Sequence record: PP754824.1
Reading direction: 5' to 3' (one strand)
DNA length: 42,515 nt
Source of the DNA: a phage
A model generated the notes under the pieces. The model did not search any database. It was given only the letters and a program-made list of their open reading frames with translations, and had not been told where the DNA came from. Below are positions 4,393 through 41,128 of this stretch, piece by piece. The translations under genes were made by a program, and so were the position numbers. The stretch's first letter is position 1; the number at the start of each line of letters is the position of its first letter.

Positions 4393-4899
4393 TTACGCTC
4401 TCGTATTTAGGTAGCCTTTATTTTCAGAGCCATGATTTTCATGATATCCGTTCAATTTGTCATACTGCGACCTTGCCAATGCAGCCTCCTCTATAGTGTC
4501 CTTGTAGCATATGAAGACTGTTTTACCAAACTCTCTAGCCTGAACAAGCCATCTATTCTCTCTTTTGCACCAGCTTACACCGTTTATTCCGCTTTTATTT
4601 CTTGATGATAGTGATCTGTTATTTGAGTTCTCTTTATTGCTTACTAACCTTAAGTTCTCTATTCTATTGTCACTTCTATTTTGGTTTATGTGATCTATGT
4701 ACATGCCTTTAGGGATTGCTCCATTGTGCATCTCCCACACCACCCTGTGACACCTGTATGCTTTTTGTCTATACTTTAGTATCACATAGCCAAATTTATC
4801 AACTCTTCCGGCCACCTCTCCAACCTTTGATACATTTGCTACTTTTACCTTTCTTATTAAAAGCCCGTCTCTATATTCAAAAATATCATGCCAATTCAT
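4393..4899 (-). CDS. HNH homing endonuclease (HNH_3 + AP2-like domain)
   Basis: IDHINQNRSDNRIENLRLVS HNH motif followed by SGINGVSWCKRENRW AP2-like segment; N-terminus MNWHDIFEYRDGLL is paralogous to 33191..33661; inserted between terS and terL. Confidence 0.85.
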   Translation of the reverse strand: MNWHDIFEYRDGLLIRKVKVANVSKVGEVAGRVDKFGYVILKYRQKAYRCHRVVWEMHNGAIPKGMYIDHINQNRSDNRIENLRLVSNKENSNNRSLSSRNKSGINGVSWCKRENRWLVQAREFGKTVFICYKDTIEEAALARSQYDKLNGYHENHGSENKGYLNTRA

Positions 4900-4927: not shown

Positions 4928-4970
4928 ATTATCTCATTGATTGGGCCTCTTCTTTTAACAAAAAGTGCTA
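4928..4970 (-). promoter_or_regulatory. conserved promoter box, variant TAGCACTTTTTGTTAA, 22-nt spacer, -10 GATAAT
   Basis: Member of the repeated box family; the -10 lies inside an inverted repeat GGGCCCA..TGGGCC; about 30 nt upstream of the HNH start. Confidence 0.5.
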
Positions 4971-5813: not shown

Positions 5814-5889
5814 TGGTGTTCCGCGCTGGACTCGAACCAGCAACTAAGACTTAGGAGGTCTTTGCGTTATCCTGTTACGCCAGCAGAAC
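5814..5889 (-). tRNA. tRNA-Arg (anticodon CCU), CCA encoded
   Basis: Hand-folded cloverleaf on the minus strand: 7-bp acceptor stem GTTCTGC/GCGGAAC (one G-U), D-arm GCGT/ACGC, anticodon stem AAGAC/GTCTT with loop CTCCTAA, T-arm GCTGG-TTCGAGT-CCAGC, discriminator A, CCA. Confidence 0.8.
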
Positions 5890-9193: not shown

Positions 9194-9239
9194 AATAGCA
9201 CTTTTTGCTAATGACAAACATTGGTAACGAGACCATAAT
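9194..9239 (+). promoter_or_regulatory. conserved promoter box (AATAGCACTTTTTGCTAA), about 22-nt spacer, -10 CATAAT
   Basis: Plus-strand copy ahead of the rightward early genes; leader CATCAACAACGAGGAGAGAGAT precedes the ATG at 9267. Confidence 0.55.
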
Positions 9240-9266: not shown

Positions 9267-9464
9267 ATGAAACTTAAAGACGAAGCGTATGAGCAGCTAA
9301 AGCAGGAATGCGCTCTGATTGGGTTGAACGAGATGTACAGCGATATGGTTTTGCGCGGCAAGATTGATATTGACCTCGCTAAGCAATTCCAGTCAGATGA
9401 TGAGTATCTATGTTGTGATGGCTTGGGCTGTGACGAATGTTTACCCTGGCAAGGAATGAGATGA
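9267..9464 (+). CDS. hypothetical early protein (65 aa, Cys-rich C-terminus)
   Basis: ORF track; RBS GAGGAG. Confidence 0.5.
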   Translation: MKLKDEAYEQLKQECALIGLNEMYSDMVLRGKIDIDLAKQFQSDDEYLCCDGLGCDECLPWQGMR

Positions 9465-12594: not shown

Positions 12595-12621
12595 AAATAG
12601 CCCCATTACGGGGCTTTTTTG
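12594..12621. terminator. bidirectional rho-independent terminator at a convergent junction
   Basis: AAAAAT-AGCCCCATTACGGGGCT-TTTTTGTTTTT. Confidence 0.7.
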
Positions 12622-12992
12622 TTTTTCCTGAATATTACCAAAAGCAGAATGATGATGATGCACAACATAATTCCACTTCCAACCCACGGGATTGCAGAAG
12701 AATCATTGTTTGTGATTTCAATCTTCTCAGCTGTGATTGTTGACGCTTTGATTGAGTTATCAGAAGTCTTCTTACCGCTTGAGCTATCAAGAGTGTCAAC
12801 ATTAGAGTTCTTCAACTCAGCCTTTGCATTGGAACTTGAATAAACCTTGTTTGTCAGACCTACGCCAACCTTATTGTTCTCCGCTCCAGCCTGGGCGCTA
12901 ATCTCTGGCTTACTGCCAATCAATCCGGTCAGTGCTGATGTTGCCGAACAACCAGAAAGAAGAATTGCCGCAGCAATTAATACAGTCTTCAT
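12606..12992 (-). CDS. unimolecular spanin (outer-membrane lipoprotein signal plus C-terminal transmembrane segment)
   Basis: Lipobox LLSGC near the N-terminus and hydrophobic C-terminus IMLCIIIILLLVIF followed by RKNKK; architecture of phage T1 gp11-type u-spanins. Confidence 0.65.
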   Translation of the reverse strand: MKTVLIAAAILLSGCSATSALTGLIGSKPEISAQAGAENNKVGVGLTNKVYSSSNAKAELKNSNVDTLDSSSGKKTSDNSIKASTITAEKIEITNNDSSAIPWVGSGIMLCIIIILLLVIFRKNKKAP

Positions 12993-13474
12993 TTACCAAC
13001 CCCGCTTAAGCACAATTTAATCTCCTCGTTACGCCTGTTTACGAGACCCTTGACTACCTTCAGCTTGCCATTTATTCGAGCCTTGTTCCACATCCCGAGA
13101 GCCTTGCAACCCTGCTCAACTTTACCCTGGTTAATCAGCCGTACAGCCGTTGACTTCCTCATTGCAGAACCGCCAACGTTATAACTAAAGCTGATTAACG
13201 CCGCCCTTGTTTCTGGTGAAATTGGATAGGTAACTGCATCCTGCACATACTTACCATGAATCTTAATGTGCCTCTCCAGCAAGTTACGGCACTCCCTTGC
13301 GCTGTATACTTTACCAACAATAACATCTGGGCCAGTCACACCAGAACAAACCGTAGGTATGCCAGCAATATCCATATATGGCCTGTACCCTACACCCTCA
13401 ACAAGCTCAATAACCGGCGCTGCGATGTATATTGCCGCTGCCGTCGCTGCACTAATTATCAGCCTTTGCTTCAT
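12989..13474 (-). CDS. SAR endolysin (GH24 lysozyme with N-terminal signal-anchor-release domain)
   Basis: Catalytic-triad pattern E-x8-D-x5-T (LVEGVGYRPYMDIAGIPTVCSG) after a weakly hydrophobic N-terminal segment AATAAAIYIAAPVI. Confidence 0.8.
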   Translation of the reverse strand: MKQRLIISAATAAAIYIAAPVIELVEGVGYRPYMDIAGIPTVCSGVTGPDVIVGKVYSARECRNLLERHIKIHGKYVQDAVTYPISPETRAALISFSYNVGGSAMRKSTAVRLINQGKVEQGCKALGMWNKARINGKLKVVKGLVNRRNEEIKLCLSGVGK

Positions 13475-13689
13475 TACTTACTCCTTATCTTGATTGCTGT
13501 TTTTAAGTCTCCTGATTCAAGTGCTCGTCGAATCGCCTGGCTATCCTTAAACTTCCAGTAAGACCCCCATAACCCAAAAACGATAAGAGCTACAAGGCTG
13601 ATTATTGCGACTGTGATTTGACCAGTTGCGGCGCCAGTTACAGCAGCCCCGCCAGTTGATGCCGTGGCGGCGTTAAGTACTTCCCTCAT
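13474..13689 (-). CDS. putative holin/pinholin (71 aa from the internal ATG)
   Basis: Single hydrophobic segment ITVAIISLVALIVFGLWGSYW and charged C-terminus; immediately upstream of the endolysin; the ORF-track start at 13767 would run into the upstream terminator. Confidence 0.5.
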   Translation of the reverse strand: MREVLNAATASTGGAAVTGAATGQITVAIISLVALIVFGLWGSYWKFKDSQAIRRALESGDLKTAIKIRSK

Positions 13690-13763
13690 GTGATCACCTT
13701 TAAATCCTAATTTGTCAATAGATAGTGTAAATATAATACAGTAGGCCAGTTCGGATTGTAAGC

Positions 13764-13790
13764 ACAAAAAAGGGGAGCCAAAAGGCCCCC
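13764..13790 (-). terminator. rho-independent terminator (minus strand)
   Basis: GGGGGGCCTTTTGGCTCCCC followed by TTTTTT on the minus strand. Confidence 0.6.
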
Positions 13791-13817: not shown

Positions 13818-13991
13818 TTAATCTGCGATAATAAATTCCACCAAAGAGCCATCAATCGGCGCAAGGATGTGAGTCATATCGTCGCCATAAATCTTGTAGT
13901 AACCGCTACCAAGATGCTCGCCGCTGTATGGCTGATTCTCAGTAAACGGAAGCGTCTTTGAGTTGTTTTTCACGCAGTATAGTTTAGTCAT
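13818..13991 (-). CDS. small hypothetical protein (57 aa)
   Basis: Hand-translated; promoter box, TATAAT and RBS upstream. Confidence 0.4.
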   Translation of the reverse strand: MTKLYCVKNNSKTLPFTENQPYSGEHLGSGYYKIYGDDMTHILAPIDGSLVEFIIAD

Positions 13992-16822: not shown

Positions 16823-18813
16823 AACAATTCTCCAAAATTCTTAAAAGCGATTATATCTTTACCTTTGCCGTTTTTTCTATGTGTAACCTGCACTGGTGCG
16901 CGGAACTTATCCACGTTCGCCATAATCATTCTCGCATTGCGAAGTCTGCCAATTCTTGTGGCTTCAGCGCGATTCTCTATATGAGCAAGGCAGAAGTTCT
17001 TCCATAGCACGCTGCAAACTCGATGGTCAGACTCGGGGTTGAAGAATTCCCATGCATTAAACCGATCTCCGTTATGAGCCATGATATTGTACTTAACAAC
17101 AATTCCGGTTTGATTCTTACTTAAGCCAACTTGAAAATCATAAACAAGAAGGTAATCACCACGACGATACATCTTACCTGTAAGGTTAGCATTGGGGTCT
17201 TTAAGCATCTCTCCGCACTCTCGACAGACCTTCGCTGCTATATCATTGCGAGTCCCGCACCCTTTTTTGATAATAGCCTTTGTCTGCAGGTCTGTAATAT
17301 CTTCACAAACTGTAAAAGTAAAGAAGTGCTCACATCTCTTTCCGTCAATCTTATTTCCGCATCTACGAGCAAAAGGCGAATTCTCGTATGAGCAAATTGG
17401 GCACACTCGAACCTCTGAATCACCATTGCGTGATGACTTAAACTTCTCGGCCTGAATCTCTTCAATTATTGGATCAAAGTAAAGTTCAGCCATATCATCA
17501 AGTGCGCCAGCAAAGTCCAGGACTAAGTGGTCATCCTTTTTCATACCAATTTCAATATGTTTCTTCTTGAGAATTCGCATTCCACGACCAAGAAGCTGAA
17601 TCATTAATGTCAGGCTTCCAATCCTGCGGAGTATGACACTTGTGTCCCACGGAGGCACCGAAACGCCTGTGGTTAAGCATCCAATCTGAAAAATAATCTT
17701 GTACTTTCCGGTCTGGCATTCATCTAGAATTTCCCTTCTCTTCTTCTCACCAGTGGAATCAGTGATTATCGCGTAAGGATAACCATCGGGTAGAGCAGCA
17801 GCCGCTTCATCGCAGTGCATTTTACCAGCGCAAGTTACCAGTGCGGCGTTACGTGTTTCAAGTATTTTGATAACGAACCCCATTATCTTTTGTGTCATCG
17901 TCTGGTTTTCGTGAATCTTTGCAGCCATTGCATCCATTTCTTTTTTGCTGAAATCCTTAACGCCATCACTTCCATCAGGTGCAAACTCGCTAAGGTCATA
18001 ACCCAAATCACCAACCTCACCGTAAACAGTTGGAACAACGAATCCCAAATCAACCAGGTAACTGGTCGGAACTTGCATTACCGTCTTGCGCCAGAAGCCA
18101 CGAATATTTGGGTTACTAACTACAATGTGGTCGTTGTTACGATACGGGCTACCAGTCAAGCCGAATATACGGAGCTCGCGACCATACTTCTCTTTGCAGC
18201 GGCGCTTCATTTCAGTGATGATTAGTGTGTACTGCGCACGACCAGTTCCAAGAAATCCGGTATTCACTCCATCCTTGAAAACCATTTCGCCTTTCTTGGT
18301 GCTCATTTGCTCAAATGTCTCTTCGTTCTCTTCAGCTTCTACGATATCCATGTGGTCCACCATGTGTGCCTCATCTATTGCGATAACCGCAGGAACATAG
18401 TCACCAAGACCCTTAAACAATCCATTGGCAGCCGTTCCTTCACTAGCCACTATGGTTGGGTAATAAACTGATTTAACGTTAAGGCCAGCGCAATATACGC
18501 TATTACGAATGCCAAAGCTGCGAAGTTCTTCAGCGTTCTGACTGATAATTTCAGACTGGCGAGAAAGTACCATATAAGGAAGGCCAAGTTGCTCCATGCG
18601 TTTACCAATCATGGCAATAATGATTGTCTTGCCAGCCGATACAGACAGGTCTGCGATGAACGGAGCTTCGTACTTAGCAATATTCTTGCCGATTTGGTCG
18701 AATGTCACGCACTGGAATGGATACGGCGTAATATCTCCAAACTGATAGTCTCTCTGAATCTGCTTAATCTTTTCTTGGTCAAAGTTTGCCACTAAGCGTT
18801 CTACTGGAAGCAT
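16819..18813 (-). CDS. SF2 DEAD/DEAH-box helicase with C-terminal zinc-ribbon region (664 aa)
   Basis: Motif I SVSAGKT, motif II IDEAH, helicase C-terminal region, then Cys clusters CPICS...RRCGN and CRECG. Confidence 0.85.
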   Translation of the reverse strand: MLPVERLVANFDQEKIKQIQRDYQFGDITPYPFQCVTFDQIGKNIAKYEAPFIADLSVSAGKTIIIAMIGKRMEQLGLPYMVLSRQSEIISQNAEELRSFGIRNSVYCAGLNVKSVYYPTIVASEGTAANGLFKGLGDYVPAVIAIDEAHMVDHMDIVEAEENEETFEQMSTKKGEMVFKDGVNTGFLGTGRAQYTLIITEMKRRCKEKYGRELRIFGLTGSPYRNNDHIVVSNPNIRGFWRKTVMQVPTSYLVDLGFVVPTVYGEVGDLGYDLSEFAPDGSDGVKDFSKKEMDAMAAKIHENQTMTQKIMGFVIKILETRNAALVTCAGKMHCDEAAAALPDGYPYAIITDSTGEKKRREILDECQTGKYKIIFQIGCLTTGVSVPPWDTSVILRRIGSLTLMIQLLGRGMRILKKKHIEIGMKKDDHLVLDFAGALDDMAELYFDPIIEEIQAEKFKSSRNGDSEVRVCPICSYENSPFARRCGNKIDGKRCEHFFTFTVCEDITDLQTKAIIKKGCGTRNDIAAKVCRECGEMLKDPNANLTGKMYRRGDYLLVYDFQVGLSKNQTGIVVKYNIMAHNGDRFNAWEFFNPESDHRVCSVLWKNFCLAHIENRAEATRIGRLRNARMIMANVDKFRAPVQVTHRKNGKGKDIIAFKNFGELL

Positions 18814-18853: not shown

Positions 18854-18897
18854 TATAATAACAGCCATCGAACCCATTGTTTAACAAAAAGTGCTAT
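18854..18897 (-). promoter_or_regulatory. conserved promoter box, variant AATAGCACTTTTTGTTAA, about 22-nt spacer, -10 TATTAT
   Basis: Upstream of the helicase start at 18813; sits in the divergent region before the plus-strand gene at 18910. Confidence 0.5.
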
Positions 18898-20376: not shown

Positions 20377-20407
20377 ATTGCCTGAAAGATGGTAGAATGA
20401 ATTTTAT

Positions 20408-20423
20408 CAATTAGTGCTATTTT
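20408..20423 (-). promoter_or_regulatory. box-family copy in anomalous orientation upstream of the plus-strand tail fibre gene
   Basis: Plus strand reads CAATTAGTGCTATTTT, i.e. the box on the minus strand; no good -10 at the 22-nt spacing. Confidence 0.3.
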
Positions 20424-24499: not shown

Positions 24500-24544
24500 A
24501 ATAGCACGATTTGCTAAAGACAACTGGCTATCTTTAGGTATATT
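24500..24544 (+). promoter_or_regulatory. conserved promoter box (AATAGCACGATTTGCTAA), 22-nt spacer, -10 TATATT
   Basis: Plus-strand copy ahead of the 24625..26101 gene set. Confidence 0.55.
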
Positions 24545-25726: not shown

Positions 25727-25769
25727 TAGCACTAATTGCTAAACACTTATCGCAAGGATGCGGTATTAT
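25725..25769 (+). promoter_or_regulatory. conserved promoter box (AATAGCACTAATTGCTAA), 22-nt spacer, -10 TATTAT
   Basis: Leader CATCGAAACGAAACACAC then RBS AAGGAA and ATG at 25810. Confidence 0.6.
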
Positions 25770-25809
25770 CTTTCCATCGAAACGAAACACACTTACTAAG
25801 GAATACAAA

Positions 25810-25914
25810 ATGACTAACTTAACTACTAACGTAATCTCTGCAATCTTCGGTGTAGCAGCTACTGGTTTCTTCGTATGGCTTCTGATGCTGGCTAGCAACT
25901 TTAAAGGGTTCTAA
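25810..25914 (+). CDS. small membrane protein (34 aa)
   Basis: Hand-translated MTNLTTNVISAIFGVAATGFFVWLLMLASNFKGF; single hydrophobic helix. Confidence 0.35.
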   Translation: MTNLTTNVISAIFGVAATGFFVWLLMLASNFKGF

Positions 25915-25915
25915 G

Positions 25916-26101
25916 ATGAAAAAATTAATCGTTATCACTGCAATGATTTTAGCTGGTTGTTCAGGCGGTGAAAGAACTATAGTTCTTATCAGTGACTACT
26001 CAGTTACAATTAGAGGTTGTGAATACAGCAATGGAGAGGTAAATCAAAATCTTTATTCGGTTTTACCAGCTGGATATTGTTTTAACAAGAAGGCCCATTA
26101 A
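25916..26101 (+). CDS. small lipoprotein (61 aa), candidate Llp/Cor-like superinfection-exclusion factor
   Basis: Signal peptide with lipobox ILAGC; convergent with and adjacent to the putative receptor-binding gene. Confidence 0.5.
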   Translation: MKKLIVITAMILAGCSGGERTIVLISDYSVTIRGCEYSNGEVNQNLYSVLPAGYCFNKKAH

Positions 26102-26112
26102 GGGCCTTATTT
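26091..26112. terminator. bidirectional terminator-like hairpin
   Basis: AGGCCCATTAAGGGCCT followed by TATTTTTATTT between convergent genes. Confidence 0.55.
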
Positions 26113-26910
26113 TTATTTGTTTTCCTTTCTTATCTCAACTGGATTGTAATTAAGAGGCAGCCTCGAGGTGTCGCAAACCATAACTTGCGTCCTCATATTG
26201 CCAACCCAGCCGCCAGTTGGTGAAACATCAAGGTATACACCTGTAGGTATTATGGATATAAATAGATTACCGGATGAGTCAAGGTGACAGCATTCATTAT
26301 AGTAGTACCCACCCTGCAATGATGTTTCAACCCACCCCCTACCAACAGGCATTGATAATGCTGAGTTTGATACGTTCGCGGAGTTGACAATATTCCCGAC
26401 GTTAGTCCAGTTACTACCACCTTCCTGATCTGAATGGTTTGGATAACTTGGATCAAGCCATAGCACATCCCTAAGTTTGAGGAAGTACCAGCCAGAATCA
26501 AAGATTATAGAACCAGATTCATTAAATATCTGCATTCCATAATCACTTCTTTCTGGCGGGATCCACTTGTCAAATATGTAATACTCTACAGTTCCTAGCG
26601 GTATGTTCCACCACTTGAATAGGTCTATGCTTGTCTTTGTTATTGTGGTATTTGGGTTAACAAAATCAGGTGATATTTTGTTAACTCCAGGCTTCTGGCT
26701 TATCCTTGACCTACTTTCGTTCATCTTTAGAAATAGAAGAGGCGAATTCATTCCTGTGGTCATGAGGCTAATTGCAGATGTGGAGTTTGCATATGAGTAG
26801 AAATTTGAATCATTAAATGTACCAGAACTTCTTAGTACGTAATTTACATCCTCTGCGTCAGCAACCTTTAAACCATAGTCATTTATTAGTTCAACACCAT
26901 AATCACTCAT
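26113..26910 (-). CDS. tail-associated protein, candidate receptor-binding / distal fibre protein (265 aa)
   Basis: Last gene of the tail operon downstream of J; Asn/Ser/Gly/Tyr/Trp-rich like beta-structured fibre tips. Confidence 0.4.
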   Translation of the reverse strand: MSDYGVELINDYGLKVADAEDVNYVLRSSGTFNDSNFYSYANSTSAISLMTTGMNSPLLFLKMNESRSRISQKPGVNKISPDFVNPNTTITKTSIDLFKWWNIPLGTVEYYIFDKWIPPERSDYGMQIFNESGSIIFDSGWYFLKLRDVLWLDPSYPNHSDQEGGSNWTNVGNIVNSANVSNSALSMPVGRGWVETSLQGGYYYNECCHLDSSGNLFISIIPTGVYLDVSPTGGWVGNMRTQVMVCDTSRLPLNYNPVEIRKENK

Positions 26911-33190: not shown

Positions 33191-33661
33191 TTATTTACCC
33201 CCGTGATTTTTGTGATAATTAAGGGCTATCTCTGCGCTTTTTCTCGCTTTTACAGCCTCTTCAAAATTGCTTGTTGTTAATAGAATTCTCTTACCTATCT
33301 TTGATATAAATTTTTTCTTTGTTTTGCAGTAACTAACCACGACAACGCCAGTTTTATTTGATGAGTACATGCTTTTGTTTTTCATGTTATCACTCTTCGT
33401 TACCAGTCTTATGTTTGATATGTTGTTGTTTTTTCTAGAGTGGTCAATGTGATCAATTTCCATGTCATCAGCTATTCTTCCATTAAACATTTCCCATACA
33501 ACCCTATGGGCCATTACCTTTACACGCTTGTATTGAACGATTATGTAACCTCTCTTTTCACAAAAGAAACCAGCAACATCGCCAATATTGTATTGTATTG
33601 CTGGCTTTATCTTCCAATAAAGAACGCCATTTCTATAATCAAAAATATCATTCCAGTTCAT
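33191..33661 (-). CDS. HNH homing endonuclease (156 aa)
   Basis: EIDHIDHSRKNNNISNIRLVT HNH motif; N-terminus MNWNDIFDYRNGVLYWKIK paralogous to 4393..4899; inserted between tape measure and M. Confidence 0.85.
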   Translation of the reverse strand: MNWNDIFDYRNGVLYWKIKPAIQYNIGDVAGFFCEKRGYIIVQYKRVKVMAHRVVWEMFNGRIADDMEIDHIDHSRKNNNISNIRLVTKSDNMKNKSMYSSNKTGVVVVSYCKTKKKFISKIGKRILLTTSNFEEAVKARKSAEIALNYHKNHGGK

Positions 33662-33689: not shown

Positions 33690-33734
33690 ATTATAGCAAG
33701 CCAAATCCTTTTGGCTTTACCATTTTGTGCTATT
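33690..33734 (-). promoter_or_regulatory. conserved promoter box variant (AATAGCACAAAATGGTAA), 22-nt spacer, -10 TATAAT
   Basis: Spacer hairpin AGCCAAAAGGATTTGGCT; RBS AAGGAG; drives the HNH gene. Confidence 0.55.
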
Positions 33735-36717
33735 AGTTGAAACCTCTCAAATAAGCAAATGCTCTGCCGCCCTGCTGGAAAGACTGAGCAATCTCTTCTG
33801 CTACAATTGCCTTAACGCCATTTTGCAGCGCCTTGGCCTGTTCCGGGTCGCTTCCAATCCCACTATTAACGTTAACGGTTATTCCGCTAACATTAACATC
33901 TGCACCACCAGAAACCAAGCCGCCATTTGCATAGCCCGAAGGCCCGCCTACAACACCGCCATTTGCGTAACCTCTCATCAATGCGTAAAGGTTTTTAACA
34001 CCAATCCTGCTTGTTGCTTCTTTTGTGAATACAAACTCCCCCTTATGTACAGTGCCTGCTGGTTGATATTTTCCACCGTCTCCAGTGTAACCGCCGCTAG
34101 CAAAGCCACCGCCAATCGCAGATGCGATAGACCCAATCGCGCCACCAGTACCACCAAAGCTACTTAAGCTAGACTCGATAGCCTTAACAATAAGAAGCTG
34201 AGTTGCAATTCTTGCAATCTGCTTGAGTATGTTTACAGTAAACTCCCTGAAGTTTGTTTCTCCAGTGGTTACAAGGTCAGTAATCTGGTCAGTAATGCCT
34301 TCAAATACCTTAGTGGTTAAACTTCCGGCAATTGAGAAAGCATCTGTAGCGCTTTCAGCCCAGTTAGCAAAGGATTGATTCACGCCAGCAAGCCAGTTTT
34401 CACGTAGCGCATCCTCTTGAGCATAGAAATTACGCCTTGCTTCGAGTAAAGCCTGAAAATCAGTGTCATCTACAGAGCCACCTTTGTTTAACTGATTGGA
34501 CTGAAGCGACTGAATCTCTCTGGCTCTCTGCTTCTCCCTGTCAGATAAATTAGCAGCAAGCGAAACATTATTTGCTTCATTCTTAATCTGCACAGTCTTC
34601 TTAAGGTTGTCATCAAGTAACTTGTTTGACCTCTCCTGAAGCACAATCTGGTCACCAAGCTCAGCCTTCTGTTTAGCCTGTTCAAGAATGATATTCTTCT
34701 GCGCAAGTAACTTGGCTTGTGATTTTGTAAGCGTACCATCCGCTTGCCTTTGCTCAAGTATTGCAAACTTCGCTTCTTCCTGGAATAACTGCTTGCGTTC
34801 GTTGCTTATTACATCACTTATTTTCTTGTGCTCTTGTAAAACCTTCAGCTGAGCCTGAAGAGCAAGAACACCAGATTCATAAGATAAAGTTAAATCCATT
34901 TCTTCTTTTACTGCCTTATTCCTCTCGCTCCTCGATTTCTTTATTGCATCAAGCTCGTCTGCTAGCGCTTTCTTCCTTGCTCCGAACTCCTTATCTGTTG
35001 ATGCATTATTCCCGCTCAGGTTAGTGTTATTGTTGCTCTCGACATAACCAAGTTCACCCTTCCTGATTCTCGCGTCTCGCTCAGCTATGCTTTTAGCTAA
35101 CTCAATGTTTTGCTTCTTGGCAGCATCGACAATCTTTTGCTGCTCAGCGATTGCTTCATTGCCTAAATCGCCAAGTCCCGGGATTGACTGAAGCGTCTTG
35201 GTTGCAGCGATAGCAAATTCACCAAGAAGAATGTCGCCTGAGTTTATGAACGACCTTATCTGCTCAATCGTCCCAGCAACAACGTCAGTTATTAAGTTAA
35301 GAGCACCAAGTGTCCTTTTGCCGATATCATCCCAAATATTACTTACAAACTTCCTGAAGCTATTCCATGCACTTTCTAGCGGATTGAGGCTTAGTGCAAC
35401 ATCTTCTAGCCTGTTTTCCATAACGTTAGCAAATAACTCAGTAGCTGCTGTTACAGCCTCAGTCTCTCCCGCTGTCTTCCTTAAGTTCTCTATGTGTTTT
35501 AACTGCCCACTTTGAAGGAAGTTAAATTGCTTATCAAGCTCAGCAAGGCCTTTAACAGGGTCTTTTGTAATTTGGTCAAAGTACCCGAGAATGGTCTTTG
35601 AATCGGTTGATGTTACTGCCGCCCACTGCGCTGTTGCCTTAGTTATCTTGTCTATCTGCGTAAGAGTTAGGTTTCCGTTTGCCACAAGGCTATTGGCTAT
35701 TTCCTGAATAAGTCCGCGAGTAGCTAGTGTTGATCTCTCAATTCCATCAACAACCTGATTTATCTGCGCTGTAGACGTGATAGTTGAGTTGCCAACCAAC
35801 GTTATCGTAGATGCTAGTCCTCGAGCATTCTTATCGGCCTGATAAGCCGCAACACCCAAAGCGCCAAGAGCCAGGCCTAGAGTCCCAACAACTGCTGTTA
35901 ATGGGTTAATGGCTGCCAGTGCAAACCTTGCTGTATTTCCAATACCGCCAAAACTATCCTTAATCTGCCCACCCTGTTGGATTGCAACAAGCCAGACTGG
36001 CATGCCGCTAGCAAGGGAAGTTCCGATATCTGTAATCTGAGCGGGTAGCTGGCGAATCGCTTGCTTGTACTGACCGGCGCTTAAACCTGACTTAAGAAAA
36101 GCGGAACTCTGCTTCTGCAACTGAACAGCAGATGCCTCGGCAGCCTTACCAATCCTGTCGATAATAGGCGCAGCTTGGTCACTAACCCCTAGCTGAGCAG
36201 CCTTAAGCTGAAGCAGTTCAGTCCTTGTAAGGCTTGCTGCATTCGCCTCGTTCTCAAGAGATTGAATGAACTTTTGCGCCGCTGCTGTTGCCTTTTCTTT
36301 GTCTATTGATGCCTGGAGTGCAGCCCGACCTTCCTCGCTAAGAGCAGCTTTAGACCTGTTGAGCTTATTGATTTGAGTTTCAATAACAGAGCCAAGCCTG
36401 AAGAATTCTTCATCAGGAACTATCCCAGATTCAAATGCTTTGTCTAATTCAGTTGCTGCCTTCTGCAACTTCTGGAATTTAGCGGCAGTTGGGTCTATGG
36501 CTTTCTGAAGTGATGCGAAAGATTTGCGCTGTTCCTCAAGCTGCCTTGCAGTGTCCCTTGCTTGAGTCTTGGCTACAAGCTCGGCGTTGATGAAGCTATT
36601 GATTCCCGTTGCAGCTTGCTCGTTTGCTTGCCTGAATTTCTGTAATGATTGCGTACCCTTATCGACCTGAGCGACGTCGACGGCTAGCGTGATACCAGCA
36701 ATTTCGTTAGTTGCCAT
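33733..36717 (-). CDS. tail tape measure protein (994 aa)
   Basis: Long Ala/Gln/Lys-rich alpha-helical protein with Gly-rich C-terminal segment, downstream of the G/G-T chaperone pair. Confidence 0.9.
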   Translation of the reverse strand: MATNEIAGITLAVDVAQVDKGTQSLQKFRQANEQAATGINSFINAELVAKTQARDTARQLEEQRKSFASLQKAIDPTAAKFQKLQKAATELDKAFESGIVPDEEFFRLGSVIETQINKLNRSKAALSEEGRAALQASIDKEKATAAAQKFIQSLENEANAASLTRTELLQLKAAQLGVSDQAAPIIDRIGKAAEASAVQLQKQSSAFLKSGLSAGQYKQAIRQLPAQITDIGTSLASGMPVWLVAIQQGGQIKDSFGGIGNTARFALAAINPLTAVVGTLGLALGALGVAAYQADKNARGLASTITLVGNSTITSTAQINQVVDGIERSTLATRGLIQEIANSLVANGNLTLTQIDKITKATAQWAAVTSTDSKTILGYFDQITKDPVKGLAELDKQFNFLQSGQLKHIENLRKTAGETEAVTAATELFANVMENRLEDVALSLNPLESAWNSFRKFVSNIWDDIGKRTLGALNLITDVVAGTIEQIRSFINSGDILLGEFAIAATKTLQSIPGLGDLGNEAIAEQQKIVDAAKKQNIELAKSIAERDARIRKGELGYVESNNNTNLSGNNASTDKEFGARKKALADELDAIKKSRSERNKAVKEEMDLTLSYESGVLALQAQLKVLQEHKKISDVISNERKQLFQEEAKFAILEQRQADGTLTKSQAKLLAQKNIILEQAKQKAELGDQIVLQERSNKLLDDNLKKTVQIKNEANNVSLAANLSDREKQRAREIQSLQSNQLNKGGSVDDTDFQALLEARRNFYAQEDALRENWLAGVNQSFANWAESATDAFSIAGSLTTKVFEGITDQITDLVTTGETNFREFTVNILKQIARIATQLLIVKAIESSLSSFGGTGGAIGSIASAIGGGFASGGYTGDGGKYQPAGTVHKGEFVFTKEATSRIGVKNLYALMRGYANGGVVGGPSGYANGGLVSGGADVNVSGITVNVNSGIGSDPEQAKALQNGVKAIVAEEIAQSFQQGGRAFAYLRGFN

Positions 36718-36721
36718 ATTG

Positions 36722-36750
36722 TCTCCATAATAAAAAAGCCACCCCGAAGG
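36722..36750 (-). terminator. terminator-like hairpin upstream of the tape measure gene
   Basis: Imperfect hairpin AGCCATCCTTCGGGGTGGCT followed by TTTTTT on the minus strand. Confidence 0.4.
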
Positions 36751-36754
36751 ATGG

Positions 36755-37081
36755 CTATTTCTTGGCGTTCATCATATCTAAGGCTTTAGCCTCAAGTATT
36801 CTGATATCGTTAAGTACCATTTCTTCATCATCTATTTTATAGACTTTGAACAAGAATGGAAGGCAATTATAATCAAGGCCTGTGGCACCGCAAGCACCTA
36901 CTCGCCATTGTGTCGACATAGCACAGTACACATCCCAGCTTTGCATCATTGTTTCATCGAAGTGTAACTCTTCAGGCTCCTCACCTTCATAATCGGAACG
37001 TTTCATTCCGATAGCTTCGAGTTCGGCATCCGTTGGCGGTGACTGGTATTGTAAGTATACTGCGCGTTTTAGTTTTTTACT
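36755..37081 (-). CDS. tail assembly chaperone G-T, -1 frame extension (fusion made by programmed frameshift from 37069..37383)
   Basis: Reading the -1 frame from the A_AAA_AAC slippery heptamer runs without a stop into ORF 36755..37006. Confidence 0.65.
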   Translation of the reverse strand, partial: SKKLKRAVYLQYQSPPTDAELEAIGMKRSDYEGEEPEELHFDETMMQSWDVYCAMSTQWRVGACGATGLDYNCLPFLFKVYKIDDEEMVLNDIRILEAKALDMMNAKK

Positions 37082-37383
37082 CGCTGCCCTGCAAGTGCTT
37101 TCATGTAGCTATCCATTAGCGATGGAACTGCACCAGGGAAAAGGTTTGCAAACTCATCGACGTTCTCATCGTTAAATGGTTCTTCTAAATCCCAGTCAGA
37201 GCAGATTTCGCTAATCAATTCCTTAGTGCTGAAGTTTTCACGATTAAGAATCTCCTGTAACTCAGATGATTTCTTGTGCTTAACTGTTAAGACTACTTCT
37301 GCGTCCTCTCCATTCGCAAGCTGAAACTTAACTGGAAGTTTAAAGTCAGGAAGCGCCTTAAGTGAAAGTTTGAATTTTGCCAT
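37069..37383 (-). CDS. tail assembly chaperone G-like (104 aa)
   Basis: Position upstream of tape measure; acidic; ends just after the slippery heptamer. Confidence 0.7.
   Translation of the reverse strand: MAKFKLSLKALPDFKLPVKFQLANGEDAEVVLTVKHKKSSELQEILNRENFSTKELISEICSDWDLEEPFNDENVDEFANLFPGAVPSLMDSYMKALAGQRVKN
37072..37078 (-). other. programmed -1 ribosomal frameshift slippery site A_AAA_AAC
   Basis: Minus-strand codons GTA AAA AAC TAA; plus strand shows GTTTTTT. Confidence 0.65.
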
Positions 37384-37418
37384 CTCGTTATCTCCTTTGT
37401 TTATGTTGAATGATTATA

Positions 37419-37667
37419 TTACTTTGATTCGTTTTTTACAATGTTGTGAGCAACTTCGGTGCACACTTCGCGACCATAGTGCAGAATCTGGTTTGTCTTA
37501 TCGCCAGCTACTTTTTCACAATGCGAATATGCACTATTAAATTCATGTTCATACTTTATTGCATCAGAGTTTGCGGTTGCGCCACCAGTTGGGTTGACAA
37601 TCTGAATTGCCAGGTAGAAAGCACCAAGAGCAGCAGTAAGTTTGATGATATTTTTAACGTTGTTCAT
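37419..37667 (-). CDS. small secreted protein with signal peptide (82 aa)
   Basis: N-terminal signal-like segment IIKLTAALGAFYLAIQIV; mature part has three Cys; inserted between major tail and G. Confidence 0.5.
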   Translation of the reverse strand: MNNVKNIIKLTAALGAFYLAIQIVNPTGGATANSDAIKYEHEFNSAYSHCEKVAGDKTNQILHYGREVCTEVAHNIVKNESK

Positions 37668-37685
37668 TTTGTTTTCTCTCTCGTT

Positions 37686-37826
37686 TTAGCGATTACGCAG
37701 CGCTATCACAATTAAAGCAAGCAAAGCAGATACGAAGTAAGTGCCTATGGCTGCACCTAATGATACCCAAAAGGTTAGACCTGTAGCATAATAGAAAAAA
37801 GCGGTCAGCATACCAATTAAAATCAT
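37686..37826 (-). CDS. small membrane protein (46 aa from the internal ATG)
   Basis: MILIGMLTAFFYYATGLTFWVSLGAAIGTYFVSALLALIVIAL; RBS GAGGT; the ORF-track GTG start at 37886 would overlap the -10. Confidence 0.45.
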   Translation of the reverse strand: MILIGMLTAFFYYATGLTFWVSLGAAIGTYFVSALLALIVIALRNR

Positions 37827-37865
37827 TTTGCTTACCTCTATAATCCATCTCGTTTCGATAAAGTA

Positions 37866-37909
37866 ATAATAGCAAATCCCTGCCACACGTCTTTAACAAA
37901 AAGTGCTAT
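37866..37909 (-). promoter_or_regulatory. conserved promoter box variant (ATAGCACTTTTTGTTAA), 22-nt spacer, -10 TATTAT
   Basis: Immediately after the major-tail terminator; leader TTATCGAAACGAGATGG. Confidence 0.55.
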
Positions 37910-37912
37910 CAA

Positions 37913-37940
37913 TAAAAAACCCTCCGAAGAGGGTTAATTT
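37913..37940 (-). terminator. rho-independent terminator after the major tail gene
   Basis: AACCCTCTTCGGAGGGTT followed by TTTTTT on the minus strand. Confidence 0.7.
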
Positions 37941-38599
37941 TATACTAGCTCAGAAGCCACAGAACTCAGCCTACCACGGATGGATACCGCGATGGATACC
38001 GTTTCGATTTCGTTAACACCAATGCTCGGGGTGTCGTTGAAAGAGATAGTGCCAGACTGAAGTCGCATCTCACTAGCGCGAGGCACGAACAGACGGATAG
38101 CAACAACCTGACCAGACTCATCATAGTTACGCAGAATCGGATATACCGGGTTGGTGTATTCGTGCGCGAACGTGTAGGTGTTAGTTACCGCAGACTTATA
38201 GGTTGGAATCTTTTGCTCGCGGTCATCAGATAAACACTGGAAGTTAACGAACTGCTGTTCGCCGCCGTCAGTGGATACATCCTGAACACAAGGAACTTCA
38301 AACCAGCTAAGAATCTTAACTACTTCACCAGTTAAACCGGCTGGAAACTTAGTGTTGTTGGAGGTATCAATACCTTCAACAGTTACGTCCGAACCAGATA
38401 CCGCGGTGACACGAACTTGCTTATCAGCCAGAAGTGTTGAAGCTGAGCTGGTGAACAGCAGGTAATCCCCGCGCGCAATACCTGTGGCGTCGGACAAAGT
38501 TAAAACAGGAGCAACAGCATTGGTAATTGCTGTTACGTCGATAGTATTACCCCTAGTGCCCTCTACGAAGACCTGGGTGCCATTGCTGAGATGGGCCAT
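37940..38599 (-). CDS. major tail (tube) protein (219 aa)
   Basis: Position upstream of G/G-T and downstream of the head-tail joining genes; followed by a strong terminator. Confidence 0.6.
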   Translation of the reverse strand: MAHLSNGTQVFVEGTRGNTIDVTAITNAVAPVLTLSDATGIARGDYLLFTSSASTLLADKQVRVTAVSGSDVTVEGIDTSNNTKFPAGLTGEVVKILSWFEVPCVQDVSTDGGEQQFVNFQCLSDDREQKIPTYKSAVTNTYTFAHEYTNPVYPILRNYDESGQVVAIRLFVPRASEMRLQSGTISFNDTPSIGVNEIETVSIAVSIRGRLSSVASELV

Positions 38600-38610
38600 A
38601 TATTTTCCTT

Positions 38611-39009
38611 TTAGTCAAGACGAACATAGAAACGAACTGGAATAAACCAGCCAGATTTTGACTTCACTACCGGGTGAACTACTCCGCCCTCATAAATGTA
38701 GCCTGTGTCAAGCATTGTACCATCAAGCATTGATTCTGCCAATTGATTCGCCAACCTCCTTGCGCTATCAACACCATCACCTGGTGAGAAAAATACAGAG
38801 ACCTGAACCATGCCGACATAGTATTTGCACTTGCGACTCAAGCTATAGGTTACGGTATCGGCCTCAGTGTAGTCGTACTTCAGCCACATACCGCCATTAC
38901 TTGGAGGAGAGAATGCTACGTTTTCGTAGGAGATTGGATACCTGACTGGAAACGTTTTAACCAAATCAGTCACAAACCTCCTTGATGCTAAAGATAGCTC
39001 ATACTGCAT
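38611..39009 (-). CDS. tail terminator-like protein (gpU position) (132 aa)
   Basis: Gene order only. Confidence 0.45.
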   Translation of the reverse strand: MQYELSLASRRFVTDLVKTFPVRYPISYENVAFSPPSNGGMWLKYDYTEADTVTYSLSRKCKYYVGMVQVSVFFSPGDGVDSARRLANQLAESMLDGTMLDTGYIYEGGVVHPVVKSKSGWFIPVRFYVRLD

Positions 39010-40519: not shown

Positions 40520-41128
40520 TTATAGCACTAAACAATCGCCTTCGTGAACCCCATTGGCGTTTCCGTACTCGCCGAATATTTCTTTACACCAACTGTCGTA
40601 ACACTCCTTAGCCTCTTCAATTGTGTCAAACCTTTTAGCCATCCTTACATCTCCGCAATCCTTTTGTATCTGGGCTTTCCACTTCCCCCTTGATTTATCG
40701 TAGCTAACACCTTTAAATCCACTCTTGTTCCTTTTGTATAGGCTCGTATTCATCATGTTCTCACTTCGAGTAACAACCCTTAGGTTTTCCACCCTATTGT
40801 TTAATGAGTTACCATCAATGTGATCTATCTCACCTGTCGGCCAACTCCTGTGATGATAAAACCACTTTAACTTATGCATTGAAACGTGAAACTTCTTCCC
40901 GGAAACTTTAATACATAGCTTCCACATCTTACTTTCTGGGCATGTTGGGTTTGGAGTGAATTCACCTCCAGCAACCTTTCCGGCGCACCTTGAATTCCAT
41001 ACATTTGTAAACCTATCATTTCCCGGCTTTACTTTCCATGTCATAACGGGACTTTCAGAATCTGATTCAAGTCTTGATGTTAGCTCTTCGTGAGTTAGTA
41101 GTTCTTCAATTTTCATTTTCGCCTCCAT
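40520..41128 (-). CDS. HNH homing endonuclease (HNH_3 + AP2-like) (202 aa)
   Basis: EIDHIDGNSLNNRVENLRVVT HNH motif and SGFKGVSYDKSRGKWKAQI AP2-like segment; inserted after the major capsid gene. Confidence 0.85.
   Translation of the reverse strand: MEAKMKIEELLTHEELTSRLESDSESPVMTWKVKPGNDRFTNVWNSRCAGKVAGGEFTPNPTCPESKMWKLCIKVSGKKFHVSMHKLKWFYHHRSWPTGEIDHIDGNSLNNRVENLRVVTRSENMMNTSLYKRNKSGFKGVSYDKSRGKWKAQIQKDCGDVRMAKRFDTIEEAKECYDSWCKEIFGEYGNANGVHEGDCLVL
40521..40540 (+). promoter_or_regulatory. truncated box copy (ATAGCAC joined directly to TAAACAATCGCC) at the 3' edge of the HNH insertion
   Basis: Plus strand reads TATAGCACTAAACAATCGCC: the two halves of the long box lacking GAATTGC. Confidence 0.3.

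What the first reader, a model, noticed from the sequence alone, without database searches (positions are those of the whole stretch)
37419..37940. Two-gene insertion (secreted protein and small membrane protein) with own promoter inside the tail operon
Between the major tail gene (with strong terminator at 37913..37940) and the G chaperone lie a promoter box plus TATTAT, a 46-aa membrane protein, and an 82-aa secreted Cys-containing protein. Lambda-like tail clusters normally have nothing here. Autonomously transcribed insertions of this kind often encode host-interaction or exclusion functions.
Basis: partly seen in the sequence, partly recalled or inferred. Interest (0 to 1): 0.5.

Follow-up and report, generated by a model that had tools for sequence, protein, structure and literature searches.

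The report
Exported accessory genes in tail operon
Between the tail-tube gene and the tail-chaperone gene of this T1/Rtp-like E. coli phage sit two real small genes for cell-envelope proteins; their function is untested, and the best guess is that they protect the infected cell from further phage attack.

Summary
The window is a Braunvirinae (Rtp-like) coliphage, 99.9% identical to Rao1, TR2 and TR3. On the minus strand the region reads: major tail gene, UUCG-loop terminator, promoter, 46-aa two-helix membrane ORF, 82-aa signal-peptide protein with two conserved Cys, then the G/T chaperones with no terminator in between.

The interpretation needs correcting. The terminator and promoter did not arrive with an insertion. 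They are conserved in every Braunvirinae genome examined, and the promoter belongs to a family with at least 7 copies in the window. The 82-aa gene is the usual occupant of this slot (82 phage records). A ~127-aa lipoprotein replaces it in Rtp, AugustePiccard, MM01, RobRod40 and TR1. The slot is empty in T1 and four other Drexlerviridae examined outside Braunvirinae. Only the 46-aa ORF is a recent insertion of about 169 bp, and it sits behind a different copy of the same promoter in phage phiA2-1.

Both slot protein families are orphans with no sequence or fold relatives. In 27 of 27 loci the slot family tracks the central module of the tape measure protein, although the chaperone genes between them group differently. 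This suggests exclusion aimed at the tape measure at the injection stage. One distant counter-example (BEK12A) and physical linkage keep confidence modest.

The parts
37940..38599 (-). Major tail (tube) protein gene, the upstream border of the slot.
   Evidence: PF08813 Phage_tail_3 E=7.7e-67; phrog_584 E=1.6e-85.
37908..37935 (-). Intrinsic terminator: stem AACCCUC/GAGGGUU, UUCG loop, U-run.
   Evidence: -10.5 to -11.1 kcal/mol, z=-2.8. Invariant in 6 Braunvirinae.
37866..37909 (-). Promoter of a phage-wide family. Upstream motif ATAGCACTTTTTGTTAAAG (37909..37891), 19-nt spacer, TG (37874..37873), -10 hexamer TATTAT (37871..37866).
   Evidence: Motif found 5 times against 0.01 expected. 7-8 copies in the window, six of them directly upstream of a same-strand gene, and 14 copies in T1. 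Promoter activity is inferred, not measured.
37827..37860 (-). Conserved leader (TATCGAAACGAGATG...) containing the Shine-Dalgarno AGAGG of the 46-aa ORF. The predicted transcription start is near 37859.
   Evidence: A similar CATCRAAACGA leader follows most other promoter copies. It is unstructured as RNA.
37686..37826 (-). 46-aa hydrophobic protein, predicted two-helix hairpin with a C-terminal RNR. A recent cassette of about 169 bp flanked by the 8-bp direct repeat AAACGAGA (37855..37848 and 37686..37679).
   Evidence: Absent from ES, IMM-001, IME542, TR1 and Rtp. Present in TR2, TR3, CY1 and Rao1, and at another locus in phiA2-1. dN/dS 0.19. Weak phrog_16572 hit, E=1.9e-4.
37419..37667 (-). 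82-aa exported protein. Predicted signal peptide is residues 1-32 (cleavage after A-T-A). The mature ~50-residue part is a helical hairpin with invariant Cys50 and Cys69.
   Evidence: phrog_22925 E=2.4e-28. 82 phage records, all at this slot in the loci inspected. Alignment. AF2 mean pLDDT 67.6, with the 10-residue blocks covering the hairpin (residues 31-80) at 69-82. dN/dS 0.20 and 0.08.
37069..37383 (-). Tail assembly chaperone G, the downstream border. It is co-transcribed with the small genes.
   Evidence: PF08748 E=1.3e-32. No hairpin in the 35-nt spacer (0 kcal/mol).
36755..37006 (-). T part of the chaperone (DUF1799), followed by a terminator at 36756..36737.
   Evidence: PF08809 E=3.8e-14. 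Terminator.
34884..35904 (-). Central module of the tape measure protein (residues ~271-611 of the 994-aa protein encoded at 36717..33733), here the 'A' type. This is the segment whose type tracks the slot gene family.

Best explanation
Shown or directly read from sequence:
- The spacer between the tail-tube gene and the chaperone gene carries a conserved terminator followed by a promoter of the phage's own promoter family.
- In Braunvirinae, the position just behind that promoter is occupied by small accessory genes for exported proteins.
- In this phage these are a 46-aa two-helix inner-membrane peptide and an 82-aa Sec-exported, probably disulfide-bonded helical hairpin.
- They are the first cistrons of the transcript that continues into G, T and the tape measure gene.
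- They are not needed for making tails, because the other Drexlerviridae subfamilies examined lack them.
- Genes of this kind move between copies of the promoter, probably by recombination in the shared promoter and leader sequence.

Inferred:
- The proteins act in the envelope of the infected cell.
- The most likely job is superinfection exclusion after adsorption: blocking the periplasmic or inner-membrane step of DNA injection by phages of the same kind.
- The central module of the incoming tape measure protein is the probable target.
- The 46-aa peptide is an optional helper or an independent small membrane effector.
For: - Export signals. The 82-aa protein has a Sec-type N-terminus with an invariant NPTG and A at -1. 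The alternative occupant has a lipobox, LLAGC or LTGC.
- Accessory status. The slot is empty in T1, AHS24, FritzSarasin, IMGroot and K50.
- Real genes. dN/dS is 0.19, 0.20 and 0.08.
- Promoter family. It precedes the helicase gene, small early-region genes and the window's Cor-like exclusion cassette. That cassette has the same build: promoter, a 34-aa membrane ORF, then an exported lipoprotein.
- Receptor-masking exclusion is already covered elsewhere: Rtp45 in Rtp (bioRxiv 10.1101/2025.07.07.663478) and the Cor-like ORF at 25916..26101 here. The slot type does not follow the receptor. AugustePiccard (lipoprotein slot) and JeanPiccard and OzMSK (82-aa slot) all use LptD (PMC13035648).
- Link to the tape measure. 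In 27 of 27 loci the 82-aa gene goes with central module A and the lipoprotein with module B. A and B are 17-21% identical, while the flanks of the protein are 69-94% identical. The intervening G/T genes group differently: TR1 has window-type G/T (99% and 96%) but a lipoprotein and module B. Database counts match: 82 records hold the 82-aa gene and 82 hold module A at >=59% identity. Module B at >=88% occurs only in the five lipoprotein phages.
- Precedents for exported or membrane proteins that target an incoming tail component: HK97 gp15, TP-J34 Ltp (both as summarised in PMC10883804) and T4 Spackle (PMC7677548).
Against: - There is no functional data of any kind.
- The tape measure link could be plain physical linkage (about 1.5 kb apart) plus replacement of a G/T patch, which leaves both flanks paired without any selection.
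- At fine scale the two do not co-vary. The TR1 lipoprotein is 30% identical to Rtp34 although the tape measure centres are 96% identical. The ACG-M12 slot protein is 48% identical to that of IME542 although the centres are 97% identical. L039 and L041 carry a window-type slot protein (82-88%) with a centre only 57-59% identical.
- BEK12A and BEK26 (Tempevirinae) carry a distant Rtp34-like lipoprotein at an unlinked early-region promoter, together with an A-like tape measure centre.
- Phages with A-like or B-like modules in other subfamilies have no slot gene.
- One family member has Glu at -3 of the predicted cleavage site, so the protein may stay anchored rather than being released.
- The promoter also feeds G/T, so it does not mark the small genes as a separate regulatory class.
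Confidence: 0.35

Rival explanations
1. The proteins have an envelope function unrelated to the tape measure. Examples are a second adsorption-level mask, protection of progeny from cell debris, or an antagonist of an envelope-associated host defence. Under this reading the association with the tape measure module is only linkage and shared history.
For: The export signals are present. BEK12A has a distant lipoprotein homologue together with an A-like tape measure, and the two are unlinked. There is no fine-scale co-variation. Replacement of a G/T patch explains the discordant grouping without invoking selection.
Against: No mixed pairing appears in 27 loci or in the matching database counts. 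A dedicated receptor-masking gene already exists elsewhere in the genome. No PADLOC or anti-defence family hit was found.
Confidence: 0.25
2. The proteins control lysis timing, acting as an antiholin-like or holin-modulating pair comparable to T4 RI. The 46-aa membrane peptide and the periplasmic 82-aa protein would tune the pinholin and SAR-endolysin system.
For: In phiA2-1 the 46-aa cassette sits just upstream of the SH3 gene, holin, endolysin and spanin genes. Both products are envelope proteins. From my own knowledge, T4 RI is likewise a small periplasmic helical protein with an N-terminal signal.
Against: In the window and in about 80 other genomes the 82-aa gene lies in the tail operon, far from the lysis cassette at 13767..12606. 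The phiA2-1 position is simply another copy of the same promoter. No similarity to any holin or antiholin family was found. The lipoprotein alternative does not fit the antiholin picture.
Confidence: 0.1
3. The proteins are tail-assembly factors or minor virion proteins specific to the type of tape measure.
For: They are located between the tail tube gene and the chaperones and are co-transcribed with G/T. The slot family tracks the tape measure central module.
Against: A Sec signal or a lipobox sends the products out of the cytoplasm, where tails are assembled. The Drexlerviridae outside Braunvirinae that were examined, which have A-like or B-like tape measures, lack any such gene. The canonical G/GT chaperones are present.
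Confidence: 0.05
4. The ORFs are cargo with little or no benefit to the phage. They are carried along because the promoter and leader sequence acts as a recombination joint.
For: The 46-aa ORF is sporadic: it is found in 4 close relatives and in phiA2-1. The junction of its cassette lies inside the shared leader and the first five codons (MNNVK) of the next gene.
Against: Both ORFs are under purifying selection. The 82-aa gene is retained in all 82 A-type genomes, at 42-94% pairwise identity among the five compared.
Confidence: 0.1

Closest known systems
HK97 gp15 (a moron in the tail operon that gives injection-stage superinfection exclusion)
   Same: A small envelope protein encoded inside a siphophage tail gene cluster next to the chaperone and tape measure genes. 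[quoted passage not shown]
   Different: No sequence relationship was found: the only PHROG hit is the unannotated phrog_22925. HK97 is temperate and gp15 is expressed from the prophage, whereas this phage family is virulent. No exclusion has been shown here.
T4 Spackle (gp61.3)
   Same: It comes from a virulent phage. The precursor is small (97 aa) with a cleaved periplasmic signal, and the mature protein is a 75-residue helical bundle with one disulfide. It binds a tail-tip component of the superinfecting phage in the periplasm (PMC7677548).
   Different: No sequence or fold match was found in PDB searches. Spackle's target is a lysozyme domain, and the tape measure here has none.
TP-J34 Ltp
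   Same: [quoted passage not shown] 2013, cited in PMC3952083 and PMC10883804). It is comparable to the lipoprotein that occupies this slot in Rtp and TR1.
   Different: It belongs to a temperate phage of a Gram-positive host and has no detectable homology. It is not encoded in the tail operon.
Cor / Llp / Rtp45 receptor-masking lipoproteins
   Same: Small exported proteins of T1-like and T5-like phages made during infection. In this window the Cor-like cassette uses the same promoter family and the same layout of a small membrane ORF followed by an exported protein.
   Different: The 82-aa protein has no lipobox, is not next to the receptor-binding genes and is not homologous. The phage already has a Cor-like gene at 25916..26101. 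The slot type does not follow receptor use (PMC13035648).
Morons (an autonomous promoter-gene-terminator unit between conserved phage genes)
   Same: Extra genes between two conserved structural genes, with a promoter directly upstream. They are present in some relatives and absent in others.
   Different: There is no downstream terminator. The promoter and upstream terminator are resident features that are conserved whatever the cargo. Base composition does not stand out (39.7-39.8% G+C against 40.6-40.9% for G and T).

Membership tests
Moron (autonomous transcription unit) | Own promoter immediately upstream of the extra gene | tested here: met
   A promoter-family copy lies at 37909..37866. 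However, it is conserved in relatives with different cargo. T1 and FritzSarasin, whose slots are empty, carry an inverted copy of the motif in this spacer.
Moron (autonomous transcription unit) | Own terminator immediately downstream | tested here: not met
   The 35-nt spacer to G folds at 0 kcal/mol and no terminator was called there.
Moron (autonomous transcription unit) | Present or absent among otherwise collinear relatives | tested here: met
   The slot is empty in T1, AHS24, FritzSarasin, IMGroot and K50. The 46-aa ORF is absent from ES, IMM-001 and IME542.
Moron (autonomous transcription unit) | Base composition distinct from neighbouring genes | tested here: not met
   39.7-39.8% G+C, against 40.6% for G, 40.9% for T and 43.9% for the window.
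Sec-exported periplasmic protein (82-aa ORF) | Positively charged n-region, hydrophobic h-region, small residues at -3 and -1 | tested here: met
   K5 and K9; hydrophobic core at residues 10-24 (mean Kyte-Doolittle 1.9); NPTG; A-T-A before N33; A at -1 is invariant. No dedicated predictor was available. One homologue has E at -3.
Tape-measure-directed injection-blocking exclusion (HK97 gp15 / Ltp type) | Located in the envelope | tested here: met
   Predicted from a signal peptide or a lipobox only.
Tape-measure-directed injection-blocking exclusion (HK97 gp15 / Ltp type) | Specificity set by the tape measure protein of the excluded phage | tested here: inconclusive
   The family-level pairing with the central module holds in 27 of 27 loci. 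There is no fine-scale co-variation, and BEK12A is a distant counter-example.
Tape-measure-directed injection-blocking exclusion (HK97 gp15 / Ltp type) | Blocks DNA entry without blocking adsorption | not testable with these tools
   Needs plating-efficiency, adsorption and DNA-entry assays.
Tape-measure-directed injection-blocking exclusion (HK97 gp15 / Ltp type) | Sequence or fold homology to gp15 or Ltp | tested here: not met
   No annotated PHROG, Pfam, NCBIfam or PDB match.
T4 Spackle | Homology to Spackle, and a lysozyme domain in the tail as target | tested here: not met
   No PDB sequence or fold hit. The tape measure contains only TMP_2 and Tape_meas_lam_C domains.
Cor/Llp/Rtp45 receptor-masking lipoproteins | Lipobox Cys, and a gene adjacent to the receptor-binding protein genes | tested here: not met
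   The 82-aa protein has no Cys at its cleavage site and lies 7 kb from the J/RBP genes. A separate Cor-like gene is present (phrog_1119, E=7e-5).

The most novel reading that the evidence does not exclude
The exported slot protein and the central module of the tape measure form a matched pair that is kept together through recombination. After injection, the tape measure of the infecting phage remains as a conduit across the periplasm and inner membrane. The newly made slot protein (the 82-aa hairpin for module A, the lipoprotein for module B) binds that module. This would seal the resident channel and at the same time disable the conduit of any later phage carrying the same module. It would be a modular 'injection device plus its own plug' system in a virulent phage.
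Probability: 0.15. Interest if true: 0.7.

Novelty: new variant of a known kind. Interest (0 to 1): 0.45.

Why it matters
T1/Rtp-like phages are common laboratory and fermentation contaminants and are candidates for phage therapy. Their only characterised self-protection is receptor masking by Cor or Rtp45.

If the slot proteins are a second exclusion layer that acts after adsorption and is matched to the tape measure module, three things would follow:
- Cross-resistance between these phages could be predicted from the two module types.
- There would be a simple handle on the poorly understood periplasmic step of siphophage DNA injection.
- Two new small periplasmic inhibitor folds would be added.

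Separately, the shared promoter and leader sequence seems to act as a portable joint that moves small genes between transcription-unit starts. This is a tidy, testable mechanism for mosaicism in virulent phages.

Tried and rejected
- Homology. Pfam, PHROGs, NCBIfam and PADLOC gave nothing informative for the 46-aa, 82-aa, Rtp34 and TR1 proteins. The word-indexed 5.8-billion-protein search returned only close relatives. A profile search of 1.84 billion cluster representatives returned a single cluster. PDB sequence searches gave nothing.
- A common origin for the 82-aa protein and the lipoprotein. Their local Cys motifs look alike, but BLASTP gave E=0.07, so this was rejected.
- Slot type determined by receptor. 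Rejected, because LptD-dependent phages carry either type (PMC13035648).
- RNA element in the spacer or leader. There is no Rfam family and the leader is unstructured.
- Host origin of the 46-aa cassette. No match in 5,426 complete E. coli genomes.
- Weak tblastn hits of the 46-aa peptide to small ORFs of T7-like phages (E=3-9) were treated as hydrophobic composition.
- Literature. No paper in the library mentions phage gene rtp34 or the promoter motif, and no virion proteome for a Braunvirinae phage was found.

Full report
**Identity and layout.** The window is almost a whole genome of a virulent E. coli siphophage of Drexlerviridae/Braunvirinae (genus Christensenvirus). The region 36700-38650 is 99.8-99.9% identical to phages Rao1, TR2, TR3 and CY1. 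The genes of interest are on the minus strand, in this order:
- major tail protein, 38599..37940 (PF08813);
- terminator, 37935..37918, followed by a U-run;
- promoter-like element, 37909..37866;
- a 46-aa ORF, 37826..37686;
- an 82-aa ORF, 37667..37419;
- chaperone G, 37383..37069 (PF08748);
- T, 37006..36755 (DUF1799);
- a second terminator, 36756..36737;
- tape measure protein, 36717..33733.

**Observation check.**
- The terminator is a 7-bp G+C stem with a UUCG loop and U6 (-10.5 to -11.1 kcal/mol, z=-2.8).
- The "promoter box plus TATTAT" is the motif ATAGCACTTTTTGTTAAAG, then 19 nt, then TGcTATTAT.
- The 46-aa product (MILIGMLTAFFYYATGLTFWVSLGAAIGTYFVSALLALIVIALRNR) is hydrophobic throughout and ends in RNR. 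This fits a two-helix hairpin with both ends in the cytoplasm.
- The 82-aa product has K5 and K9, a 15-residue hydrophobic core, an invariant IVNPTG, A-x-A before Asn33, and two invariant Cys at positions 50 and 69.
- AF2 models it as a signal helix plus a two-helix hairpin (mean pLDDT 67.6; the 10-residue blocks covering residues 31-80 score 69-82).
- Both ORFs are under purifying selection: dN/dS is 0.19 for the 46-aa ORF, and 0.20 and 0.08 for the 82-aa ORF. For comparison, G scores 0.01 and the tail tube gene 0.07.

**The terminator and promoter are resident punctuation, not part of an insertion.**
- An alignment of the spacer from six Braunvirinae shows the terminator, the motif and the leader (CATCGAAACGA...) conserved whichever gene follows.
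- The motif occurs 5 times in the window at up to 3 mismatches (0.01 expected). A looser scan finds 7 copies, and a degenerate copy lies before 13991.
- Most copies have a -10-like hexamer, often with TG, about 20 nt downstream. Six of the eight lie directly upstream of a gene on the same strand: an HNH gene at 4899, small early-region genes at 9267, the helicase gene at 18813, the Cor-like cassette, the SH3-like gene before the holin, and the slot studied here. The copy at 24502(+) is followed by an anti-repressor-like ORF about 105 nt downstream. The copy at 20419(-) has no clear -10 hexamer and runs into a terminator-like hairpin opposite a convergent gene.
- T1 has 14 copies at the same threshold.
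- The upstream motif lies too far from the -10 hexamer (TTGTTA is 22 nt away) to be a -35 box. By position and A/T pattern it resembles an UP element combined with an extended -10. That reading is my inference, and no transcript data exist.
- There is no terminator between the 82-aa gene and G (0 kcal/mol). The small genes are therefore the leading cistrons of the G-T(-tape measure) unit.

**What occupies the slot in relatives.**
- Outside Braunvirinae the slot is empty. T1, AHS24, FritzSarasin, IMGroot and K50 have only a 16-113 bp spacer.
- Within Braunvirinae the slot is filled in every genome examined. The 82-aa family occurs in 82 phage records. The five members compared differ by as much as 42-94% pairwise identity.
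- In Rtp (rtp34), AugustePiccard, MM01, RobRod40 and TR1 the slot instead holds an unrelated ~127-aa lipoprotein with lipobox LLAGC or LTGC. BLASTP between the two families gives E=0.07.
- The 46-aa ORF is found only in the window's closest relatives. It is missing from ES, AN_ECEAS and IMM-001, whose 82-aa proteins are 84-88% identical to the window's.
- The insert is about 169 bp and is bounded by the 8-bp repeat AAACGAGA, which lies within the family leader.
- Phage phiA2-1 has a 91% identical copy elsewhere, behind another copy of the same promoter just upstream of its SH3, holin, endolysin and spanin genes. Homology runs from the motif through the ORF into the first five codons (MNNVK) of the next, unrelated gene.
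- A distant homologue of the lipoprotein (144 aa, 26-29% identity, same Cys and PSKPSD motifs) sits in the Tempevirinae phages BEK12A and BEK26, between the resolvase and Dam methylase genes, again directly behind a promoter-family copy.
- Together these cases suggest that the promoter-proximal position is a landing pad. The shared promoter and leader sequence would be the recombination joint that moves small genes between transcription-unit starts.

**Function: what the searches excluded.**
- Neither slot family has any relative of known function in Pfam, PHROGs, NCBIfam, PADLOC, PDB sequences, 5.8 billion clustered proteins or 1.84 billion cluster representatives.
- Neither model matches a known fold.
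- Receptor masking is already provided elsewhere. In Rtp it is the lipoprotein Rtp45, which binds LptDE (bioRxiv 10.1101/2025.07.07.663478).
- The window has a Cor-like lipoprotein gene at 25916..26101 (phrog_1119, E=7e-5). It is preceded by a 34-aa membrane ORF and by a copy of the same promoter and leader. This is the same build as the finding.
- The slot type does not follow the receptor. AugustePiccard (lipoprotein slot) and JeanPiccard and OzMSK (82-aa slot) are all LptD-dependent (PMC13035648).

**Function: the one positive lead.**
- Per-gene identity matrices for ten phages show that the slot family matches the type of the tape measure protein's central module (window residues ~271-611).
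- The 82-aa gene goes with module A (tape measure of ~991 aa). The lipoprotein goes with module B (~921 aa).
- The A and B centres are 17-21% identical, whereas the N- and C-terminal parts of the protein are 69-94% identical.
- The G and T genes that lie between the slot and the tape measure gene group differently: {window, ES, TR1} against the rest, at 98-99% identity within that group and ~70% between groups for G. TR1 therefore has window-type chaperones but a lipoprotein and module B. IME542, JeanPiccard and ACG-M12 have Rtp-type chaperones but the 82-aa gene and module A.
- The pairing holds in 27 of 27 loci, including IMG/VR, ENA and Logan contigs. These make up 7 distinct combinations.
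- The database counts agree. 82 records hold the 82-aa gene and 82 hold module A at >=59% identity. Module B at >=88% identity occurs only in the five lipoprotein phages.
- If the 7 combinations were independent, a perfect pairing would have a chance of about 1 in 35. They are not phylogenetically independent, so this figure is only indicative.

**Cautions on that lead.**
- The two loci are only about 1.5 kb apart. Replacing a G/T patch leaves both flanks paired without any selection.
- TR1's mosaic structure cannot be resolved well enough to count independent events.
- There is no fine-scale co-variation. The TR1 lipoprotein is 30% identical to Rtp34 while the tape measure centres are 96% identical. 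The ACG-M12 slot protein is 48% identical to that of IME542 while the centres are 97% identical. L039 and L041 have a window-type slot protein with a third A variant (57-59%).
- BEK12A combines a distant lipoprotein homologue with an A-like centre (49%).
- A-like and B-like modules exist in subfamilies that lack slot genes.

**Best reading.** The small genes encode accessory, exported proteins made in the infected cell. Their most likely role is exclusion after adsorption, at the injection stage, with the incoming tape measure centre as the probable target. The mode of action would resemble HK97 gp15, TP-J34 Ltp (both summarised in PMC10883804) and T4 Spackle. Spackle is also a cleaved, roughly 75-residue, disulfide-bonded helical periplasmic protein of a virulent phage (PMC7677548). 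Membership of any of these families is not supported, because there is no homology and the tape measure has no lysozyme domain. I put this reading at 0.35. The rivals are:
- an envelope role unrelated to the tape measure (0.25);
- lysis control (0.10);
- near-neutral cargo (0.10);
- an assembly or virion role (0.05). The export signals, and the absence of the genes from the other subfamilies examined, argue against this last one.

**Verdict.** It is wrong about the unit being autonomous and about the promoter arriving with an insertion. The finding is an uncharacterised variant of a known theme. It comes with a concrete, cheap experimental test and a modestly surprising link to the tape measure module.

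Noticed in passing
window 4954-4970(-), 9196-9212(+), 18880-18896(-), 20403-20419(-), 24502-24518(+), 25727-25743(+), 37892-37908(-), and a degenerate copy just upstream of 13991(-): A phage-wide promoter family: ATAGCACTTTTTGYTAAA, about 20 nt, a TATTAT-like -10 hexamer (often preceded by TG), then a conserved leader CATCRAAACGA. T1 has 14 copies. I found no description of it in the searched literature.
   Followed up: partly
L009 (T1) 1480-1610; L011 (FritzSarasin) 1493-1610; L044 (BEK12A) 1976-2085: In T1, FritzSarasin and BEK12A the spacer between the tail tube and chaperone genes carries the same motif in the opposite orientation, with its own TG-extended -10 pointing back into the tail tube gene. 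This could be an antisense promoter. T1 has a second antisense copy near 15085.
   Followed up: no
window 25727-26130 (+): A Cor-like exclusion cassette: a promoter-family copy, a leader, an unannotated 34-aa membrane ORF (25810..25914), a 61-aa lipoprotein (25916..26101; lipobox ILAGC; phrog_1119 E=7e-5) and a terminator. The architecture matches that of the finding.
   Followed up: partly
window 34884-35904 (-); L002, L016-L023: The tape measure gene is mosaic. A central segment of ~340 aa (module A) is replaced by an unrelated ~270-aa segment (module B) in Rtp, AugustePiccard, MM01, RobRod40 and TR1. The window's tape measure protein is only 91-92% identical to those of Rao1 and TR2, although the adjacent slot region is 99.9% identical.
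   Followed up: yes
window 13818-13991 (-); L007 2643-3031: A 57-aa protein lies just upstream of the holin gene. It is probably the standalone SH3 domain that PMC13164509 describes as part of the Drexlerviridae lysis module, though I did not run a domain search on it. phiA2-1 has a tandem paralogue (GP46) whose first five codons were replaced by MNNVK at the cassette junction.
   Followed up: partly
L042 4441-4875 (BEK12A) and BEK26: A distant homologue of the Rtp34 lipoprotein sits in the early region between the resolvase and Dam methylase genes of two Tempevirinae phages, behind a promoter-family copy.
   Followed up: yes
window 5817-5889 (-): One tRNA gene (Rfam RF00005, 59 bits). The anticodon was not determined.
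   Followed up: no
window 33191-33661 (-), 4393-4899 (-), 40520-41128 (-): Three ORFs interrupt the structural gene blocks. 4393-4899 has an HNH-type motif in its translation. The other two sit where relatives annotate HNH endonucleases (between the tape measure and M-like genes, and near the capsid gene). The one after the tape measure gene is present in some relatives and absent in others (ES lacks it; IME542 and TR1 have it).
   Followed up: no
L033 790-1737 (Logan contig SRR30205944_476645): A metagenomic relative has a 315-aa major tail protein, about 95 residues longer than usual. It also has a 131-aa lipoprotein variant in the slot and a divergent B-type tape measure centre (72%).
   Followed up: no
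GenBank records OP251154 (TR2), OR466728 (ES), MF630922 (IMM-001): Public annotations of this region are unreliable. The tail tube gene is labelled 'major capsid protein' or 'tail assembly protein', the 82-aa gene is labelled 'exonuclease', and the 46-aa ORF is unannotated in TR2, CY1 and Rao1.
   Followed up: no
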